Part shown: positions 49,266 to 52,743 of the stretch, one piece after another
Position numbering within the stretch: the first letter of the stretch is position 1
How the letters are laid out: the number at the start of each line of letters is the position of its first letter
From: an uncultured Pelagibacteraceae bacterium
GTDB lineage: Bacteria; Pseudomonadota; Alphaproteobacteria; Pelagibacterales; AG-422-B15
Length of the DNA stretch: 64,000 bases
Assembly (NCBI GenBank): GCA_902611715.1
Contig: CACMAQ010000001.1
Coordinates: forward strand, 26,720-90,719
Reading direction: 5' to 3'
Notes under the pieces: model-generated
Databases searched by the model: none
The model's input: only the letters and a program-made list of their open reading frames with translations
Told to the model about the DNA's origin: nothing
Translations under genes and position numbers: made by a program

Positions 49266-49958
49266 ATGAAAGTATTAATGCTAAATCCCGGAGATCAGGT
49301 AGCCATTTCGTTTTGGTTGATCTCTATGGCCATGGTTGCCGCTACTGCTTTCTTCTTTCTTGAAAGAGATCGTGTAGCTGCTAAATGGAAAACGTCCCTA
49401 ACAGTTGCTGGTTTGGTCACTGGTGTGGCGGCGTGGCACTATTTCTACATGAGAGATGTATGGGTAGCTACAGGTGATTCGCCAACAGTCCTTCGTTATA
49501 TTGACTGGTTGATTACTGTGCCTCTACAAATCGTAGAATTCTATGTAATTCTTGCAGCGATGACTGCTGTTGCTTCAAGCCTTTTCTGGAGACTACTAAT
49601 TGCATCAATTATTATGCTTGTCGGCGGTTATCTCGGTGAAACTGGAGCGATGAATGTAACACTAGCCTTTGTAATTGGTATGGCTGGATGGTTGTATATC
49701 ATCTACGAGGTTTTTGCAGGTGAAGCGAGCAAGGCAAGTGCTGGTAGTGGGAATGCTGCCGGTCAGACTGCATTTAACGCATTGAGATTAATTGTTACAG
49801 TAGGATGGGCAATTTATCCAATTGGTTATGCTGTGGGTTACTTCGGTGGCGGCGTTGACGCTGGCGCATTGAACTTAATCTATAACCTTGCAGACTTTGT
49901 TAATAAAATTGCATTTGGTATGGCTATTTATGTAGCTGCAGTATCAGACAGCAACTAG
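49266..49958 (+). CDS. Proteorhodopsin, blue-absorbing type (Q105)
   Basis: RYIDWLITVPLQIVEF gives D97, Q105 and E108 in GPR numbering. The Schiff-base Lys lies in ADFVNKIAFG. 7 TM helices. The RBS AAGGGG lies upstream of the ATG. Confidence 0.9.
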   Translation: MKVLMLNPGDQVAISFWLISMAMVAATAFFFLERDRVAAKWKTSLTVAGLVTGVAAWHYFYMRDVWVATGDSPTVLRYIDWLITVPLQIVEFYVILAAMTAVASSLFWRLLIASIIMLVGGYLGETGAMNVTLAFVIGMAGWLYIIYEVFAGEASKASAGSGNAAGQTAFNALRLIVTVGWAIYPIGYAVGYFGGGVDAGALNLIYNLADFVNKIAFGMAIYVAAVSDSN

Positions 49959-49984
49959 TTAACTGCAAAGTAAATAATAAAGAA

Positions 49985-50008
49985 GGGGCCTTCGGGCCCC
50001 TTTTTTTT
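49985..50008 (+). terminator. Rho-independent terminator after proteorhodopsin
   Basis: A perfect GGGGCC-TTCG-GGCCCC hairpin (49985-50000) is followed by T8 (50001-50008). Confidence 0.85.
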
Positions 50009-50064
50009 ATCCATTGTTAAAGTTCTGGAACTTAATTACACATAGAGCTATAAATTACCTTATT

Positions 50065-50152
50065 GGCCTCATGGCGGAATTGGTAGACGCAAAGGACTTA
50101 AAATCCTTTGGGATTTATTCCCGTCCCGGTTCGAGTCCGGGTGAGGCCACCA
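50065..50152 (+). tRNA. tRNA-Leu (anticodon UAA)
   Basis: Hand-folded. Acceptor GGCCTCA/TGAGGCC; anticodon stem AAGGA/TCCTT with loop CTTAAAA; long variable arm; T arm CCCGG-TTCGAGT-CCGGG; encoded CCA. Confidence 0.85.
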
Positions 50153-50210
50153 GAAAACTAGCTAATTTTTATGAGTGATGTGAGAGGAAATTTTGGTTAT
50201 ACTTTTATAT

Positions 50211-51098
50211 ATGAAAAATCTTAGGACCTATATTTGCTCAATCTTTTGTATCTTTTTGTTAATAGGTATTTCAAATGCTTCTAATTTAGAAAATAGAGTT
50301 GCTTCATATTTTAATGGTCTAGCTAATAGCTTAGGCACAAGTGTCTCTTCATTATTGGGAGAAAATAGTAGAGTTAAGTATCTTGATTTAAATTTGGGTG
50401 TACAAGAGCATTTTAAGCCAACAATCTCACTTACTAATGTGAATATGATTTCTGAGTATGGCAATAACGCAATATTTAATCAAAACTCTCTAAACCTTCA
50501 TAACAATGACCAAACAATCAATTTAGGCATTGGTCACAGAACTCTACTAAATGATGACAAAGTTTTATTTGGATTGAATGTATTCTTTGATTATGCATTT
50601 GATGACGCACATCAGAGAAATGGAGCCGGCCTTGAGGTATTAAGTAGTGTTTTTGATTTGAGATCTAATATTTATGATGCCACATCAGGTATTGAAACCG
50701 TTTCGACAGGGAAAGATGAAGAGGCGATGGACGGATGGGATATGCGACTTGACTATCATTTACCTATTAAAGCAAATGTGAGATTGTTTGCGGGGTTATT
50801 TGAATTTGAAAATGCAGCCGGTTCATATGAATTAGAAGGAGAGAAGTACGGACTTAATGTAATTGGTAACAATCTCGATTTAGAAATTGGATATATCGAT
50901 GACAATAAAACAGGTGATGGCACATTTGCTAATATAAGTTATGTTGTGCCTCTAAGTGGTAATAGTTCTTTTAAAAATAACTCTTCTAACTATTTTGAAT
51001 ATACATCCGTTGCTGAAAGACTGTATGAACCAGTTAAACGTGAAAATAAGATTAGAGTTGTCTCTACAACACTAAATGTTAAAGCAAGTGGGTTTTAG
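50211..51098 (+). CDS. Inverse-autotransporter (intimin/invasin-type) beta-barrel domain protein, no passenger
   Basis: Signal peptide MKNLRTYICSIFCIFLLIGISNA. The region INLGIGHR..LFGLNVFFDY....QRNGAGLEV....DLRSNIYDATSG....EEAMDGWDMRLDYHLP....LFAGLFEFEN aligns block by block with the intimin barrel (NLGAGQR..GYNVFIDQ...RLGIGGEYW...SVNGYFRMSGW...ERPANGFDIRFNGYLP...LGAKLIYEQY), recalled from memory. Confidence 0.6.
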   Translation: MKNLRTYICSIFCIFLLIGISNASNLENRVASYFNGLANSLGTSVSSLLGENSRVKYLDLNLGVQEHFKPTISLTNVNMISEYGNNAIFNQNSLNLHNNDQTINLGIGHRTLLNDDKVLFGLNVFFDYAFDDAHQRNGAGLEVLSSVFDLRSNIYDATSGIETVSTGKDEEAMDGWDMRLDYHLPIKANVRLFAGLFEFENAAGSYELEGEKYGLNVIGNNLDLEIGYIDDNKTGDGTFANISYVVPLSGNSSFKNNSSNYFEYTSVAERLYEPVKRENKIRVVSTTLNVKASGF

Positions 51099-51101
51099 AT
51101 A

Positions 51102-51974
51102 ATGAAATTCAATGTAATAATCAAAATATATACTTTTTTATTTTTAATTTTTGCTCCTATGTCGAGCTTGTTTGCTGACAGCCATGTTAATAGTTGCACT
51201 ATCACAAATGGAGTATTTTCAGCCGCTGAAGTAATAGGTGATGGAGCTGGAGAGTATTGTGCGAGCGCGCCAGAAACGTATGAAATTGTTGCTTATGAAA
51301 TGTATCTTTGTACAGCAGCTCCAACCGCACCCACATTATCTTCGTCGATGGGATTAGATAATTGCTTTAAAAATTGGGAGTCACCCGCTGGTGCAACGCT
51401 CCCTCTTCAACAAAACCAAACAAGAGACATGCCAGGCATTATGTCTAGGCCACCAAATGAGACGTATACTCACGGTGTCATGTTAATTGATAATACATTT
51501 GGAATCACTATGGCCATGCAGTTCGATGGAGCGGTTGGTGGACAAGATGGTACTTCAGGTGTTTTCTGTGCATCGGTTGCTGGCAATGAAACATATGGTT
51601 CGGGTGGAAATATACCTTCTGCTAGCTCAACGTGTGGATCCTCAGCAATCACGCCTGGAAAATTTGTTGAAACTCTTACAAGCTTTGATAGTGGCGATTT
51701 TGATGCAGATGTATCAGCAGATAATTTGAATGGTACTTCCGCATCCATAAGTGGTTACTTGGTTGATACAGATGGAAACTTGGCCGAGAACGACGCTGAT
51801 GTAGATAAATTAATTGGGTCACTAGTTTTCGCCTCAACGGTAAGCTTTACAGATGCAACTACTACTCTAACAATGTCATTCAATGTCGGTGAGGGAATGT
51901 CACTTTATGACGATGGTTCAGATCAGATAACTTTTGGCAGTGGACCTTTTCAGGCAATTTTAACGACTGATTAG
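51102..51974 (+). CDS. Secreted hypothetical protein (signal peptide, 6 Cys, G/S/T/D-rich)
   Basis: 290 aa. The signal peptide ends ...SSLFA/DS. I recognise no family. It starts 3 nt after the barrel gene stop, and its codon usage is less AT-rich than its neighbours. Confidence 0.6.
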   Translation: MKFNVIIKIYTFLFLIFAPMSSLFADSHVNSCTITNGVFSAAEVIGDGAGEYCASAPETYEIVAYEMYLCTAAPTAPTLSSSMGLDNCFKNWESPAGATLPLQQNQTRDMPGIMSRPPNETYTHGVMLIDNTFGITMAMQFDGAVGGQDGTSGVFCASVAGNETYGSGGNIPSASSTCGSSAITPGKFVETLTSFDSGDFDADVSADNLNGTSASISGYLVDTDGNLAENDADVDKLIGSLVFASTVSFTDATTTLTMSFNVGEGMSLYDDGSDQITFGSGPFQAILTTD

Positions 51975-51975
51975 T

Positions 51976-52743
51976 TTAAAATTTAAATTGTTCATTTAAA
52001 ATTCTTTCATCAAATGAATGATCTTCATCGAATAAAAGTTCTACAACTTGATCTTTACTTTGATGTACTTCAACAGAACTGATATCTCTAAACTCAGTAC
52101 TATCAGCGACAACACTTACGGGTCTTTTCTTACTATCAATAATTTCAAATTTCACATTTGACTCGTTATTTAATATTGCACCTTTCCATCTTCTAGGTCT
52201 AAAAGCACTGATAGGAGTTAATGCAAGAACATCGGCATTTATTGGGAGTATTGGACCGTGAGCAGATAAATTGTAAGCTGTGCTACCAGACGGTGTTGAA
52301 ATTAATACACCATCACAGATTAGTTCATCTAACCTAACTTTGCCATCAACTGAAATTTTAATTTTTGATGCTTGATGTGTTTCTCTAAGTAATGATACTT
52401 CGTTAATAGCAATCGCCTCATGAATTGAGCCATCGACACTCACAGCTTTCATTATCAAAGGAGATATTTTTATTGATTGAGATTGATTAATTCTATTTAC
52501 CAAATCATTTTGATTTGAGGAATTCATCAGAAATCCAACACTACCATAATTTAATCCAAAAATAGGCAAGTGTCTGTCCATATGAGATTTTATGGCTTCA
52601 AGCATAAATCCATCACCGCCCAGTACTACTATCACATCAGCTTTATCAAATTCATTTTTACCAAACTTATCTTCTAAAATCTTTTTCTGAGAACTTGCCT
52701 CATCACTGTTAGAAGCCAAAAAAACTGGTTTATTTAAATTCAT
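51976..52743 (-). CDS. nadK: NAD kinase
   Basis: 255 aa with GGDGFML and the TPSGSTAYNLSAHGPI motif. Confidence 0.85.
   Translation of the reverse strand: MNLNKPVFLASNSDEASSQKKILEDKFGKNEFDKADVIVVLGGDGFMLEAIKSHMDRHLPIFGLNYGSVGFLMNSSNQNDLVNRINQSQSIKISPLIMKAVSVDGSIHEAIAINEVSLLRETHQASKIKISVDGKVRLDELICDGVLISTPSGSTAYNLSAHGPILPINADVLALTPISAFRPRRWKGAILNNESNVKFEIIDSKKRPVSVVADSTEFRDISSVEVHQSKDQVVELLFDEDHSFDERILNEQFKF

What the first reader, a model, noticed from the sequence alone, without database searches (positions are those of the whole stretch)
50211..51974. Barrel-only inverse autotransporter coupled to a separate secreted protein: possible split type Ve secretion pair
The 296-aa product of 50211-51098 has a signal peptide. 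Its central about 150 residues align motif by motif with the intimin/invasin beta-barrel domain. The protein ends right after the barrel, so there are no Ig-like/Big passenger repeats and no LysM domain.

Three nt downstream starts a 290-aa signal-peptide protein that is G/S/T/D-rich with 6 Cys and no family I recognise. Its composition is what one expects of a beta-rich surface passenger.

A two-gene arrangement of barrel plus trans-passenger or partner would be unusual, because inverse autotransporters are by definition single polypeptides. Any adhesin-like system is unexpected in a free-living streamlined planktonic genome. The pair lies directly after tRNA-Leu, a typical island insertion point, and the second gene is visibly less AT-rich.
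Basis: partly seen in the sequence, partly recalled or inferred. Interest (0 to 1): 0.6.

Follow-up and report, generated by a model that had tools for sequence, protein, structure and literature searches.

The report
Barrel anchor plus tail-docked variable protein
A marine SAR11 bacterium carries a two-gene unit: an intimin-type outer-membrane barrel with no adhesin domain, followed by a highly variable secreted protein of an undescribed family. The conserved link between the two genes is a short tail at the end of the first protein, so the barrel probably anchors its partner and probably does not secrete it.

Summary
ORF 50211-51098 is a passenger-less inverse-autotransporter barrel: Pfam IAT_beta scores E=1.8e-28, and the AF2 model's best matches are invasin 4E1T and intimin 4E1S. 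ORF 51102-51974 is a signal-peptide protein with 6 invariant Cys, no Pfam, NCBIfam or PDB relative, and a confident all-beta model.

It is not a split gene, an artefact or a tRNA island. The pair is adjacent in 77 of 77 Pelagibacteraceae loci, with gaps of -1 to +4 nt in differing frames. It occurs in at least three genomic contexts and in non-SAR11 metagenome contigs.

Two findings are new:
- **Hypervariable cassette.** Flanking DNA is 95-100% identical between genomes, while the barrel is 78-96% and the partner 46-88% identical. dS is high and dN/dS is 0.07-0.27, which indicates old alleles exchanged by recombination.
- **Conserved C-terminal tail.** The gene upstream of every partner ends in the motif [FL]-x-V-x-[AV]-x-G-[FY]. 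The tail sits on IAT barrels, on 48-aa mini-lipoproteins and on a 351-aa secreted protein.

My reading is that the tail docks the partner, and the barrel is one of several interchangeable anchors. Barrel-only and two-partner inverse autotransporters were already described in 2016, so this is a new variant of a known kind. Docking, topology and surface exposure are inferred, not shown.

The parts
49983..50002 (+). GC-rich hairpin followed by a T-run, immediately after the proteorhodopsin gene (49266-49958). It probably separates that gene's transcript from the tRNA and the pair.
   Evidence: The sequence ggggccttcgggcccc + tttttttt is visible. The scan reported a terminator-like site at these coordinates, but on the minus strand. 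The T-run that suits a plus-strand terminator is read directly from the sequence.
50065..50152 (+). tRNA-Leu (anticodon UAA). It marks the left edge of the hypervariable cassette.
   Evidence: ARAGORN found it. Nucleotide identity to related genomes falls from 94-100% to about 83% just after it. There is no duplicated tRNA 3' end.
50211..51098 (+). Gene for the passenger-less inverse-autotransporter barrel protein (295 aa plus stop).
   Evidence: Pfam IAT_beta E=1.8e-28. AF2 model pLDDT 73.5. Foldseek top hits are invasin 4E1T (E=8.5e-15, TM 0.78) and intimin 4E1S/5G26 (TM 0.79). There are 407 homologues; the 120 listed (79% identity or more) are nearly all 280-307 aa and carry only PF11924. 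dN/dS is 0.07-0.11.
50211..50279 (+). Signal peptide of the barrel protein (aa 1-23, MKNLRTYICSIFCIFLLIGISNA|S).
   Evidence: Read from the sequence: a basic N-terminal region, a hydrophobic core and S-N-A before the predicted cut. No predictor was run. The same layout appears in homologues.
50373..50951 (+). Twelve-stranded transmembrane barrel (aa 55-247). All loops are very short except a hairpin in loop 4 (aa 158-173).
   Evidence: DSSP on the AF2 model. Invariant H134 and R136 on strand 6 match the 'completely conserved' intimin R288 (PMC13078405).
50952..51065 (+). Linker (aa 248-285). It consists of a variable stretch, a helical turn (aa 268-272), the conserved V-K/R-R-E/D-N-x-I motif (invariant R277 and N279) and a short strand (aa 283-285).
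   Evidence: The layout corresponds to the intimin helical turn, the pore-crossing linker with conserved R434/N441/N443, and the strand that pairs with loops 4 and 5 outside the cell. Pfam profile coverage runs to its last position at aa 279.
51066..51095 (+). C-terminal tail TTLNVKASGF (aa 286-295). This is the proposed docking strand for the partner.
   Evidence: pLDDT is about 31 in the monomer model. The motif [FLM]x[VILG]x[VAFT][SAQGI]G[FYIE] at the extreme C-terminus occurs in 85 of 1347 ORFs in the window and loci. Of these, 84 lie directly upstream of a partner gene and the 85th lies upstream of a truncated one. The same tail sits on mini-lipoproteins and on a 351-aa protein. The tail co-varies with partner class, and L008 is a recombinant that keeps tail and partner together.
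51096..51101 (+). TAG stop plus ATA. The two ORFs are in the same frame here, separated by this one stop codon.
   Evidence: Read from the sequence. In the 77 related loci the gap is 0 nt (38 loci), 3 nt (25), 4 nt (7), 1 nt (6) or -1 nt (1), so 14 loci are out of frame. Every partner has its own ATG and signal peptide.
51102..51974 (+). Gene for the partner: a 290-aa secreted, acidic, all-beta protein with 6 Cys, from an uncharacterised family.
   Evidence: 740 homologues in the clustered database and 720 50%-identity clusters by profile search. There is no Pfam, NCBIfam or PDB sequence match. AF2 gives pLDDT 85.1 and pTM 0.80. Foldseek finds no neighbour in PDB or BFVD: best E is 0.1 or worse and TM is at or below 0.15. 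dN/dS is 0.12-0.27.
51102..51176 (+). Signal peptide of the partner (aa 1-25, ...SSLFA|DSH). There is no lipobox.
   Evidence: Read from the sequence and from alignment A1. The AF2 model shows an N-terminal helix at aa 2-24 followed by a low-confidence stretch.
51976..52743 (-). Convergent NAD kinase gene. It marks the right edge of the hypervariable cassette.
   Evidence: Pfam NAD_kinase is assigned to the syntenic gene. Nucleotide identity returns to 88-92% at 52001.

Best explanation
The two genes form one conserved operon that builds an anchor-plus-cargo complex on the outer membrane.

Gene 1 encodes a minimal inverse-autotransporter: a 12-stranded barrel and the conserved linker that fills and crosses the pore, as in intimin. 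Where intimin has an adhesin passenger, this protein has only a ten-residue tail (TTLNVKASGF). By homology with intimin, the tail emerges on the outer face of the cell.

Gene 2 encodes a Sec-exported, disulfide-bonded, very acidic beta-rich protein of an undescribed family.

The tail is the coupling element. The partner is proposed to bind it non-covalently, most simply by adding the tail as an extra beta-strand and recognising its free C-terminus. The barrel therefore serves as a membrane anchor, not as a channel for the partner.

The same tail-plus-partner module is used with other anchors elsewhere: a lipid-anchored 22-residue peptide, and a 351-aa secreted protein.

In SAR11 the cassette is a hotspot of old, recombining alleles between otherwise near-identical genomes. 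That pattern is expected of an exposed surface structure under frequency-dependent selection, for example by phages or grazers.

**Shown:** the barrel's family and fold, conservation of the linker, strict gene adjacency, the tail motif and its specificity, interchange of anchors, hypervariability under purifying selection, and the partner being a confident fold without known relatives.

**Inferred:** physical binding of tail to partner, the tail being outside the cell, surface exposure of the partner, how the partner crosses the outer membrane, and what the partner does.
For: **Barrel identity and layout**
- Pfam IAT_beta E=1.8e-28.
- The AF2 model has 12 strands, a helical turn at aa 268-272 and a strand at aa 283-285.
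- Foldseek top hits are invasin and intimin barrels, TM 0.78-0.79.
- Invariant R136, R277 and N279 correspond to the conserved intimin R288, R434 and N441/N443. In intimin the linker crosses the pore (PMC13078405).

**Coupling of the two genes**
- Barrel and partner are adjacent in 77 of 77 Pelagibacteraceae loci, with gaps of -1 to +4 nt.
- At least three flanking contexts occur: proteorhodopsin-tRNA/NAD kinase, SelR/glutaredoxin, and hypothetical/APRT.
- Five divergent metagenome lineages also have the pair: L079 (GC 0.32), L080-L082 and L090/91 (GC 0.41-0.46), and L092 (GC not computed).

**The tail**
- Every upstream gene ends in the motif. Of 85 motif-bearing ORFs, 84 sit directly upstream of a partner and the last sits upstream of a truncated one.
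- The tail is disordered in the monomer model, with pLDDT about 31.
- Three independent mini-lipoproteins carry the tail and abut partner homologues: L078 ...LSLASC-GGGSSSSGGGSSGFSVGVQGF, L083 ...FLTAC-GGDSTAAPAPAPTTFDVTVSGE, and L086-89 ...SAAGC-GSKTTTAPVSKAPFTGTFAGY. So does a 351-aa secreted protein, L084/85 ...PTFSVGVSGF. No IAT barrel is called within 3 kb in L086-89.
- Tail type tracks partner type. The divergent third kind of pair has a different tail (...TISRAD) and a different partner.
- L008 joins a class-2-like barrel body to a class-3 tail and a class-3 partner.

**Variability**
- CinA, proteorhodopsin and NAD kinase are 93-100% identical in protein among the closest genomes, against 78-96% for the barrel and 46-88% for the partner.
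- Nucleotide identity falls from 95-100% to 47-65% only between the tRNA and the NAD kinase gene.
- dS is 0.3 to above 2, with dN/dS 0.07-0.27.
- A second genomic context shows the same pattern.
Against: - No tool here could model or test the complex.
- The tail lies next to the partner gene, so its co-variation with partner class could be linkage alone.
- A folded protein with three disulfides has no evident route across the outer membrane. A default lipoprotein anchor would face the periplasm, which argues against a common surface location.
- The partner model is confident without the tail, so its fold is not obviously incomplete.
- Each non-barrel carrier comes from a short metagenome contig of unknown taxon. 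Two of the mini-lipoprotein ORFs are cut by the contig end.
- Whether any organism fuses barrel and partner was not surveyed exhaustively. No such fusion appeared among the 150 listed profile hits; the single long hit (647 aa) is a partner fused to BNR-like repeats.
Confidence: 0.5

Rival explanations
1. True two-partner type Ve secretion. The barrel is a translocator that moves the separately encoded partner across the outer membrane, as proposed for ZirT with ZirS/ZirU.
For: The operon layout matches the 'two-partner inverse autotransporters' of Heinz et al. 2016, and the paper cites experimental ZirT-dependent secretion of ZirS. Adjacency is strict. Hypervariability suggests the partner is exposed.
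Against: - In homologous modules the barrel is replaced by a 48-aa lipoprotein or a soluble 351-aa protein with the same tail. Neither can be a channel.
- The barrel keeps the conserved pore-filling linker and helical turn.
- A 12-stranded pore is narrow, and the partner has six invariant Cys.
- There is no covalent link to pull the partner through.
- The partner is unrelated to IgSF domains, unlike ZirS/ZirU.
Confidence: 0.15
2. Periplasmic complex. The tail stays in the periplasm, and the partner is a periplasmic protein tethered under the outer membrane by a barrel or by a lipoprotein.
For: Lipoproteins with Gly or Ser after the lipidated Cys normally face the periplasm (general knowledge of Lol sorting, not tested here). 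Three carriers are mini-lipoproteins. No export route for the partner is then needed. Heinz et al. 2016 proposed a periplasmic C-terminal domain for ZirT-like proteins.
Against: - The conserved linker residues, the helical turn and the terminal strand match the intimin arrangement, in which the chain exits to the outside.
- The extreme allelic diversity of the partner between near-identical genomes is unusual for a periplasmic protein.
Confidence: 0.2
3. The tail is a signal, not a docking strand. It could be an OMP-like C-terminal signal (ending in Gly-aromatic) that directs the carrier or the partner to the barrel-assembly machinery. It could also be a substrate motif that the partner processes.
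For: The tail always sits at the extreme C-terminus and ends in G-F or G-Y, which resembles the C-terminal signal of outer-membrane proteins (own knowledge).
Against: - The true last barrel strand is internal, at aa 235-247.
- Mini-lipoproteins and a soluble protein do not need a barrel-assembly signal.
- One tail ends in Glu and one in Ile.
- The partner has no conserved catalytic-looking residues beyond Cys, Gly and Pro, and the near-invariant His124 becomes Tyr in distant members.
Confidence: 0.1
4. Artefact or decay. A single ancestral inverse-autotransporter gene was split here by a stop codon, a frameshift or a sequencing error.
For: In this window the two ORFs are in frame and separated only by TAG-ATA.
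Against: - The stop codon, a separate ATG and a partner signal peptide are present in all 77 related loci, and 14 of these are out of frame.
- Both genes are under purifying selection.
- There are hundreds of separate stand-alone homologues of each gene.
Confidence: 0.01

Closest known systems
Inverse autotransporters (type Ve secretion): intimin and invasin barrel domains, PDB 4E1S and 4E1T, Pfam PF11924
   Same: Both have an N-terminal signal peptide, a 12-stranded barrel, a periplasmic helical turn, a conserved Arg/Asn linker through the pore and a short strand at the outer opening. The fold match has TM 0.78-0.79.
   Different: There is no passenger at all; ten residues stand where intimin's D00 and Ig-like domains begin. 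There is no LysM domain. The loops are very short. The host is a free-living alphaproteobacterium, whereas Heinz et al. 2016 described the family as almost exclusively gammaproteobacterial.
'Two-partner inverse autotransporters' (ZirT/ZirS/ZirU, SinH/SinI, Yfr4) of Heinz et al. 2016, PMC4943183
   Same: An inverse-autotransporter gene is followed directly by genes for signal-peptide proteins thought to depend on it.
   Different: ZirT and SinH keep their own IgSF passenger, and their partners are homologous to that passenger. Here there is no passenger and the partner has an unrelated fold with no known neighbour. The coupling element here, a C-terminal tail also found on non-barrel carriers, is not part of that model.
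[quoted passage not shown] 2016)
   Same: The domain architecture is the same: a barrel with a few extra residues.
   Different: In the passages read from that paper, no function, conserved partner or tail motif is attached to that group. Its supplementary tables were not available, so I could not check whether SAR11 sequences were included.
Docking by a donated or terminal beta-strand (donor-strand complementation in chaperone-usher pili; PDZ-type binding of C-terminal peptides). This is a mechanistic analogy from general knowledge.
   Same: A short amphipathic terminal strand on one polypeptide is proposed to be bound by a beta-rich partner.
   Different: There is no sequence or fold relation to pilins or PDZ domains. 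Binding was not tested here.
Classical two-partner secretion (type Vb, FhaC/FHA)
   Same: The layout is a two-gene outer-membrane barrel plus a secreted protein.
   Different: The barrel here is not an Omp85 16-stranded barrel, it has no POTRA domains, and the partner has no TPS domain.

Membership tests
Inverse autotransporter (type Ve) | IAT_beta (PF11924) 12-stranded outer-membrane barrel after an N-terminal signal peptide | tested here: met
   Pfam E=1.8e-28, 100.3 bits against a cut-off of 22.3, covering profile positions 31-279 of 279. AF2 shows 12 strands. Foldseek top hits are 4E1T, 4E1S and 5G26, E from 1e-12 to 1e-15, TM 0.78-0.79.
Inverse autotransporter (type Ve) | Helical turn plus a linker with conserved Arg/Asn that occupies the pore, ending in a strand at the outer opening | tested here: met
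   R136, R277 and N279 are invariant in 32 barrels. The model has a helix at aa 268-272 and a strand at aa 283-285. The Foldseek alignment spans the whole intimin chain. The feature definitions come from PMC13078405. The actual threading is inferred from homology.
Inverse autotransporter (type Ve) | C-terminal passenger (Ig-like/Big, lectin or other) on the same polypeptide | tested here: not met
   Only 16 residues follow the domain and no other Pfam domain is found. All 240 listed homologues are 271-311 aa and carry PF11924 only.
Inverse autotransporter (type Ve) | Export of the passenger through the barrel by a hairpin intermediate | not testable with these tools
   This needs experiments, and there is no passenger to export.
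Two-partner inverse autotransporter (ZirT-like; Heinz et al. 2016) | Co-encoded downstream signal-peptide protein or proteins | tested here: met
   The partner is adjacent in 77 of 77 loci and in 5 divergent metagenome lineages, L079 to L092.
Two-partner inverse autotransporter (ZirT-like; Heinz et al. 2016) | Partner homologous to the IgSF domains of the translocator's own passenger | tested here: not met
   The barrel has no passenger. The partner has no Pfam or PDB match and no Foldseek neighbour.
Two-partner inverse autotransporter (ZirT-like; Heinz et al. 2016) | Partner secretion depends on the barrel | not testable with these tools
   This needs genetics or heterologous expression. Replacement of the barrel by lipoprotein or soluble carriers argues against a channel role.
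'invasin_beta-only' group (Heinz et al. 2016) | [quoted passage not shown] | tested here: met
Classical two-partner secretion (type Vb) | Omp85-type barrel with POTRA domains, and a TPS domain in the exoprotein | tested here: not met
   No such Pfam hits on either protein. The barrel fold matches intimin/invasin, not FhaC.
tRNA-targeted integrative genomic island | Integrase, a direct repeat of the tRNA 3' end, and presence/absence polymorphism | tested here: not met
   No integrase-like ORF lies between the conserved flanks. There is no tRNA-derived repeat. The pair is present at this site in all related loci. GC3 is normal. An empty site was not searched for.

The most novel reading that the evidence does not exclude
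A widespread, undescribed modular docking system. A roughly ten-residue C-terminal tail ([FL]-x-V-x-[AV]-x-G-[FY]) on interchangeable carriers tethers a new family of beta-rich, disulfide-bonded proteins to the cell envelope. The carriers seen are a passenger-less inverse-autotransporter barrel, a lipidated mini-peptide and a secreted protein.

In SAR11, the most abundant marine bacterium, the tethered protein would be a major exposed and highly polymorphic surface component. Old alleles of it would be maintained and shuffled by recombination under phage or grazer pressure. It would imply that a type Ve barrel can serve purely as a surface peg for a protein delivered in trans.
Probability: 0.35. 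Interest if true: 0.8.

Novelty: new variant of a known kind. Interest (0 to 1): 0.62.

Why it matters
SAR11 is the most abundant bacterial lineage in the sea, and little is known about what it exposes on its surface. This cassette has the population-genetic signature of a surface antigen or phage-contact protein at a fixed chromosomal site, beside the proteorhodopsin gene. That makes it a concrete candidate for studies of pelagiphage adsorption and strain-level diversity.

For secretion biology, it gives a natural minimal inverse autotransporter: barrel, linker and ten residues. It also points to a way of attaching a protein in trans, through a short terminal strand shared with lipoprotein carriers. 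The idea can be tested directly with peptides and heterologous expression.

It also defines a large protein family (720 clusters at 50% identity) that has a confident predicted fold, no Pfam entry and no structural neighbour.

Tried and rejected
- **Split gene or sequencing error.** Rejected. There are 14 out-of-frame loci, every partner has its own start codon and signal peptide, and both genes are under purifying selection.
- **tRNA island or horizontal transfer.** Rejected. There are no att repeats, no integrase, a conserved position and normal GC3.
- **Partner as a lipoprotein.** Rejected. No conserved lipobox is present.
- **Partner as a transmembrane barrel completed by the tail.** Considered because weak Foldseek hits included porins. 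It is unlikely, given TM at or below 0.15, three probable disulfides and an acidic, non-amphipathic sequence.
- **Metagenome scans with distant partner alignments.** The scan with A6 returned only 2 loci.
- **Profile-profile comparison of the partner with the third kind of partner.** It gave only weak support: probability 35%, E=4e-4, N-terminal 80 residues.
- **Literature.** Searches for SAR11 or Pelagibacter with invasin or inverse autotransporter, and for passenger-less inverse autotransporters, found nothing relevant. The supplementary tables of Heinz et al. were not held.
- **Promoter scan.** It found no more sites than the shuffled controls, so no transcription start can be named.
Full report
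**1. What is in the window**

ORF 50211-51098 (+) and ORF 51102-51974 (+) exist as described. They follow tRNA-Leu(UAA) at 50065-50152 and a proteorhodopsin gene at 49266-49958. They are followed by a convergent NAD kinase gene.

ORF1 (295 aa) matches Pfam IAT_beta PF11924 with E=1.8e-28 and 100.3 bits against a cut-off of 22.3. The match covers profile positions 31-279 of 279 and protein residues 38-279. Nothing else matches: no LysM, no Big/Ig domain. NCBIfam gives only partial, sub-threshold matches to SinH, YchO/YchP, Inv and intimin barrels. phmmer against PDB sequences finds invasin 4E1T (6.4e-7) and intimin 4E1S.

ORF2 (290 aa) has a signal-peptide-like N-terminus and six Cys that are invariant in 26 homologues. 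Its mature part is very acidic and S/G/T/A-rich, with 33 D+E against 5 K+R. It has no Pfam, NCBIfam or PDB sequence relative.

**2. Structures**

An AF2 model of ORF1, built from an alignment of 32 diverse barrels, has pLDDT 73.5, with the core at 80-93. It shows:
- twelve transmembrane strands (aa 55-247) with very short loops, plus a hairpin in loop 4;
- a helical turn at aa 268-272;
- a short strand at aa 283-285;
- a disordered last stretch, with pLDDT about 31.

Foldseek against the PDB puts the invasin and intimin barrels first: 4E1T at E=8.5e-15 and TM 0.78, and 4E1S/5G26 at TM 0.79. They are far ahead of classical autotransporters and porins.

In the alignment, H134/R136 on strand 6 and R277/N279 in the motif V-(K/R)-R-(E/D)-N-x-I are invariant. 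A 2026 mutational study of intimin (PMC13078405) describes the same elements. R288 on strand 6 and R434 in the linker are 'completely conserved'. A helical turn plugs the periplasmic end. The linker crosses the pore. A strand at the linker's C-terminal tip pairs with loops 4 and 5 outside the cell.

By homology, ORF1 is therefore a complete inverse-autotransporter barrel-plus-linker. Its chain ends ten residues after the point where intimin's passenger begins.

**3. Not a split gene, not an island**

In this window the two ORFs are in frame, separated by TAG-ATA. A scan of species-representative genomes with the partner profile returned 67 loci, all Pelagibacteraceae single-cell or metagenome-assembled genomes. 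Ten further loci came from exact-protein look-ups.

In all 77 loci a barrel-only IAT gene (281-311 aa where complete) lies immediately upstream of the partner. The gap distribution is:

| Gap (nt) | Loci |
|---|---|
| 0 | 38 |
| 3 | 25 |
| 4 | 7 |
| 1 | 6 |
| -1 | 1 |

Fourteen loci are therefore out of frame. Each partner has its own ATG and signal peptide. Both genes are under purifying selection, with dN/dS 0.07-0.11 for the barrel and 0.12-0.27 for the partner.

There is no direct repeat of the tRNA 3' end and no integrase-like ORF. The partner's higher GC (0.41) sits at codon position 2 (0.48, against 0.33-0.36 in all neighbours but proteorhodopsin, 0.43), and GC3 (0.29) is within the local range. 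The difference reflects composition, not foreign origin.

**4. Distribution**

The pair occurs in at least three flanking contexts in Pelagibacteraceae:
- proteorhodopsin-tRNA-Leu / NAD kinase, as in this window;
- SelR / glutaredoxin;
- a third context next to an adenine-phosphoribosyltransferase-like gene.

Eight loci carry a second pair nearby. Three of them (L037, L070, L076) have a tandem second barrel with a 322-aa partner paralogue. Four (L054, L060, L069, L075) have a third kind of barrel, ending ...KIMVEFxGxxTISRxx, followed by a 291-298-aa secreted protein. In the eighth, L071, the gene downstream of the second barrel runs off the contig. The third-kind secreted protein shares only weak N-terminal similarity with the partner (hhalign probability 35%, E=4e-4).

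A profile search of 1.84 billion representatives found 720 partner-family clusters at E of 1e-3 or better, and 391 at 1e-10 or better. Nearly all full-length members are stand-alone proteins of 265-315 aa. The family extends well beyond AT-rich SAR11, judging by sequences and contig GC of 0.41-0.62. The exact window partner also exists in public assemblies as 'hypothetical protein', and a cluster member lies on the ALOHA clone HF10_12C08.

**5. A recombining, hypervariable cassette**

The first comparison is with genomes whose flanking proteins are almost identical to the window's. In the closest set, CinA is 98-100%, proteorhodopsin 97-100%, NAD kinase 93-98% and GlpK 90-93% identical. In those same genomes the barrel is 78-96% identical, and the partner falls into discrete classes at 83-88%, 71-72%, 60-62% and 46%.

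Sliding-window nucleotide identity to five such genomes gives this profile:

| Window region | Nucleotide identity |
|---|---|
| Up to the tRNA | 94-100% in most windows |
| Just after the tRNA | about 83% |
| Along the barrel | declining |
| Partner (the four genomes with a different partner class) | 46-79% |
| From 52001, NAD kinase | 88-92% |

Two genomes (L018, L036) are 100% identical to the window for over 1 kb upstream yet carry different partner classes. Synonymous divergence is 0.3 to above 2. These are therefore old alleles moved by recombination, not recent fast evolution. A second genomic context shows the same excess divergence: flanks 94-98%, barrel 85-94%, and partner either 74-75% or 87-96%.

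This is the pattern usually seen at loci for exposed surface structures. That interpretation is an inference.

**6. The unexpected common denominator: a C-terminal tail**

All barrels end, after the linker motif and its strand, in a short tail:

| Source | Tail |
|---|---|
| Window and most proteorhodopsin-context loci | TTLNVKASGF |
| Proteorhodopsin-context loci with the 46% partner class | TSLNVTASGF |
| SelR-type and related loci | x-F-x-V-K-A-G-G-F |
| Tandem second pairs | KEMDLTVIGF |
| Non-SAR11 barrels | TNFNVVATGF, SELTITVSGF, RTFSIKVTGF, GGFATKVSGI, KKMELAVIGF |

Three independent GC-rich contigs have no barrel upstream of the partner. Instead there is a tiny lipoprotein-like ORF with a canonical lipobox, a flexible linker and the same kind of tail:
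- L078: ...GGLSLASC-GGGSSSSGGGSSGFSVGVQGF
- L083: ...VFLTAC-GGDSTAAPAPAPTTFDVTVSGE
- L086-L089: complete 48-aa ORF MKNHRFSIATKVLAALSVLLVLSAAGC-GSKTTTAPVSKAPFTGTFAGY

Each ends 1-5 nt before the partner's ATG. L086-L089 have no IAT_beta gene within 3 kb.

In L084/L085 the upstream gene is a 351-aa signal-peptide protein with no Pfam match that ends ...STTLAPPTFSVGVSGF, 1 nt before the partner.

A regular expression for the tail at the extreme C-terminus matches 85 of 1347 six-frame ORFs of 60 aa or more in the window and all loci. Of these, 84 lie directly upstream of a partner gene, and the 85th lies upstream of a partner cut by a contig end.

Within the proteorhodopsin context, tail variants follow partner class. 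L008 combines a class-2-like barrel body with a class-3 tail and a class-3 partner, so tail and partner move together. The third kind of pair has both a different tail and a different partner.

**7. Most likely mechanism**

The conserved unit is 'tail plus partner', and the anchor varies. I therefore favour a docking model. The partner binds the tail, most simply by beta-strand addition with the free C-terminus. The passenger-less barrel acts as an outer-membrane peg that, by homology with intimin, presents the tail at the cell surface. Confidence in this model is about 0.5.

It does not fit the lipoprotein and soluble carriers, the retained pore-filling linker, or the six Cys of the partner. 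I put it at about 0.15.

A periplasmic-tether model fits the lipoprotein carriers and needs no export route. It conflicts with the intimin-like linker and with the hypervariability. I put it at about 0.2.

A signal or processing role for the tail is less likely, at about 0.1.

What remains unknown is how the partner would cross the outer membrane, and what it does once there.

**8. Comparison with what is known, and novelty**

[quoted passage not shown] It fails the family's passenger criterion. It fits the 'invasin_beta-only' architecture noted in 2016. That paper called the family almost exclusively gammaproteobacterial and gave no function for barrel-only members in the passages read.

It resembles ZirT-type two-partner systems in gene order only. 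I found no paper linking SAR11 to this family or describing the partner family or the tail. The library searched is limited to open-access papers and preprints.

I rate it a new variant of a known kind, with moderately high interest. The most novel reading is a general tail-docking system that defines a polymorphic SAR11 surface protein. That reading remains open.

Noticed in passing
L069:4951-6674; L054:79-1839; also L060, L075, L071 and L079:2334-3221(-): A third kind of pair in Pelagibacteraceae. The IAT_beta barrel (279-291 aa) ends in ...KVKRxNKIMVEFxGxxTISRxx instead of the G-F tail. It is followed at 0-2 nt by a 291-298-aa signal-peptide protein with no Pfam hit. That protein shares only an N-terminal motif (YKVxMxKxELCTG ... 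LPLGETYTH) with the partner family (hhalign probability 35%).
   Followed up: partly
L037:4911-6748; L070:3441-5257; L076:1693-3530: A tandem second barrel-partner pair lies directly downstream of the first. The barrel is 280-288 aa with tail KEMDLTVIGF, and the partner paralogue is 322-323 aa. Some SAR11 genomes therefore carry two pairs side by side.
   Followed up: partly
P0367 (647 aa); L084:3001-4269 and downstream: One partner homologue is fused at its C-terminus to BNR/Asp-box, sortilin-like repeats (Pfam Sortilin-Vps10 E=9e-8, below cut-off). In L084 the reading frame appears interrupted after 422 aa.
   Followed up: partly
P0304, P0342, P0343, P0376 (L079:904-1926): Several distant partner homologues carry an extra basic C-terminal extension ending in an aromatic residue then Arg: ...TRPLRGSWR, ...TPRKRNWR, ...TPRKRSFR, ...NKRARGSWR. 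Its role is unknown; it may be a sorting or anchoring signal.
   Followed up: no
L049:6274-7203 and the same gene in L040, L045, L051, L056, L063: Another signal-peptide protein (309 aa), 2.3 kb downstream of a barrel-partner pair, is only about 60% identical between genomes whose neighbouring genes are 94-98% identical. It is a second local hypervariable gene.
   Followed up: no
window 49266-50010: A proteorhodopsin gene (Pfam Bac_rhodopsin on the syntenic gene) is followed by a strong GC hairpin and a T-run. Its GC (0.43) is as high as the partner's. The proteorhodopsin-tRNA-Leu-pair-NAD kinase order is conserved in about 30 SAR11 genomes, and a close partner homologue (same 90%-identity cluster) is annotated on the ALOHA clone HF10_12C08.
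   Followed up: partly
window 50193-50210: The mechanical ORF for the barrel starts at a TTG 18 nt upstream of the ATG. Homologues start at the position of the ATG (MKN/MRN...), so 50211 is the better start.
   Followed up: yes
window 50952-51008 (barrel aa 248-266): The most variable part of the barrel protein is the stretch between the last barrel strand and the helical turn: mean column entropy 1.05 against 0.1-0.4 elsewhere, and low pLDDT. By homology this stretch would lie at the periplasmic mouth. Why it varies so much is unexplained.
   Followed up: partly
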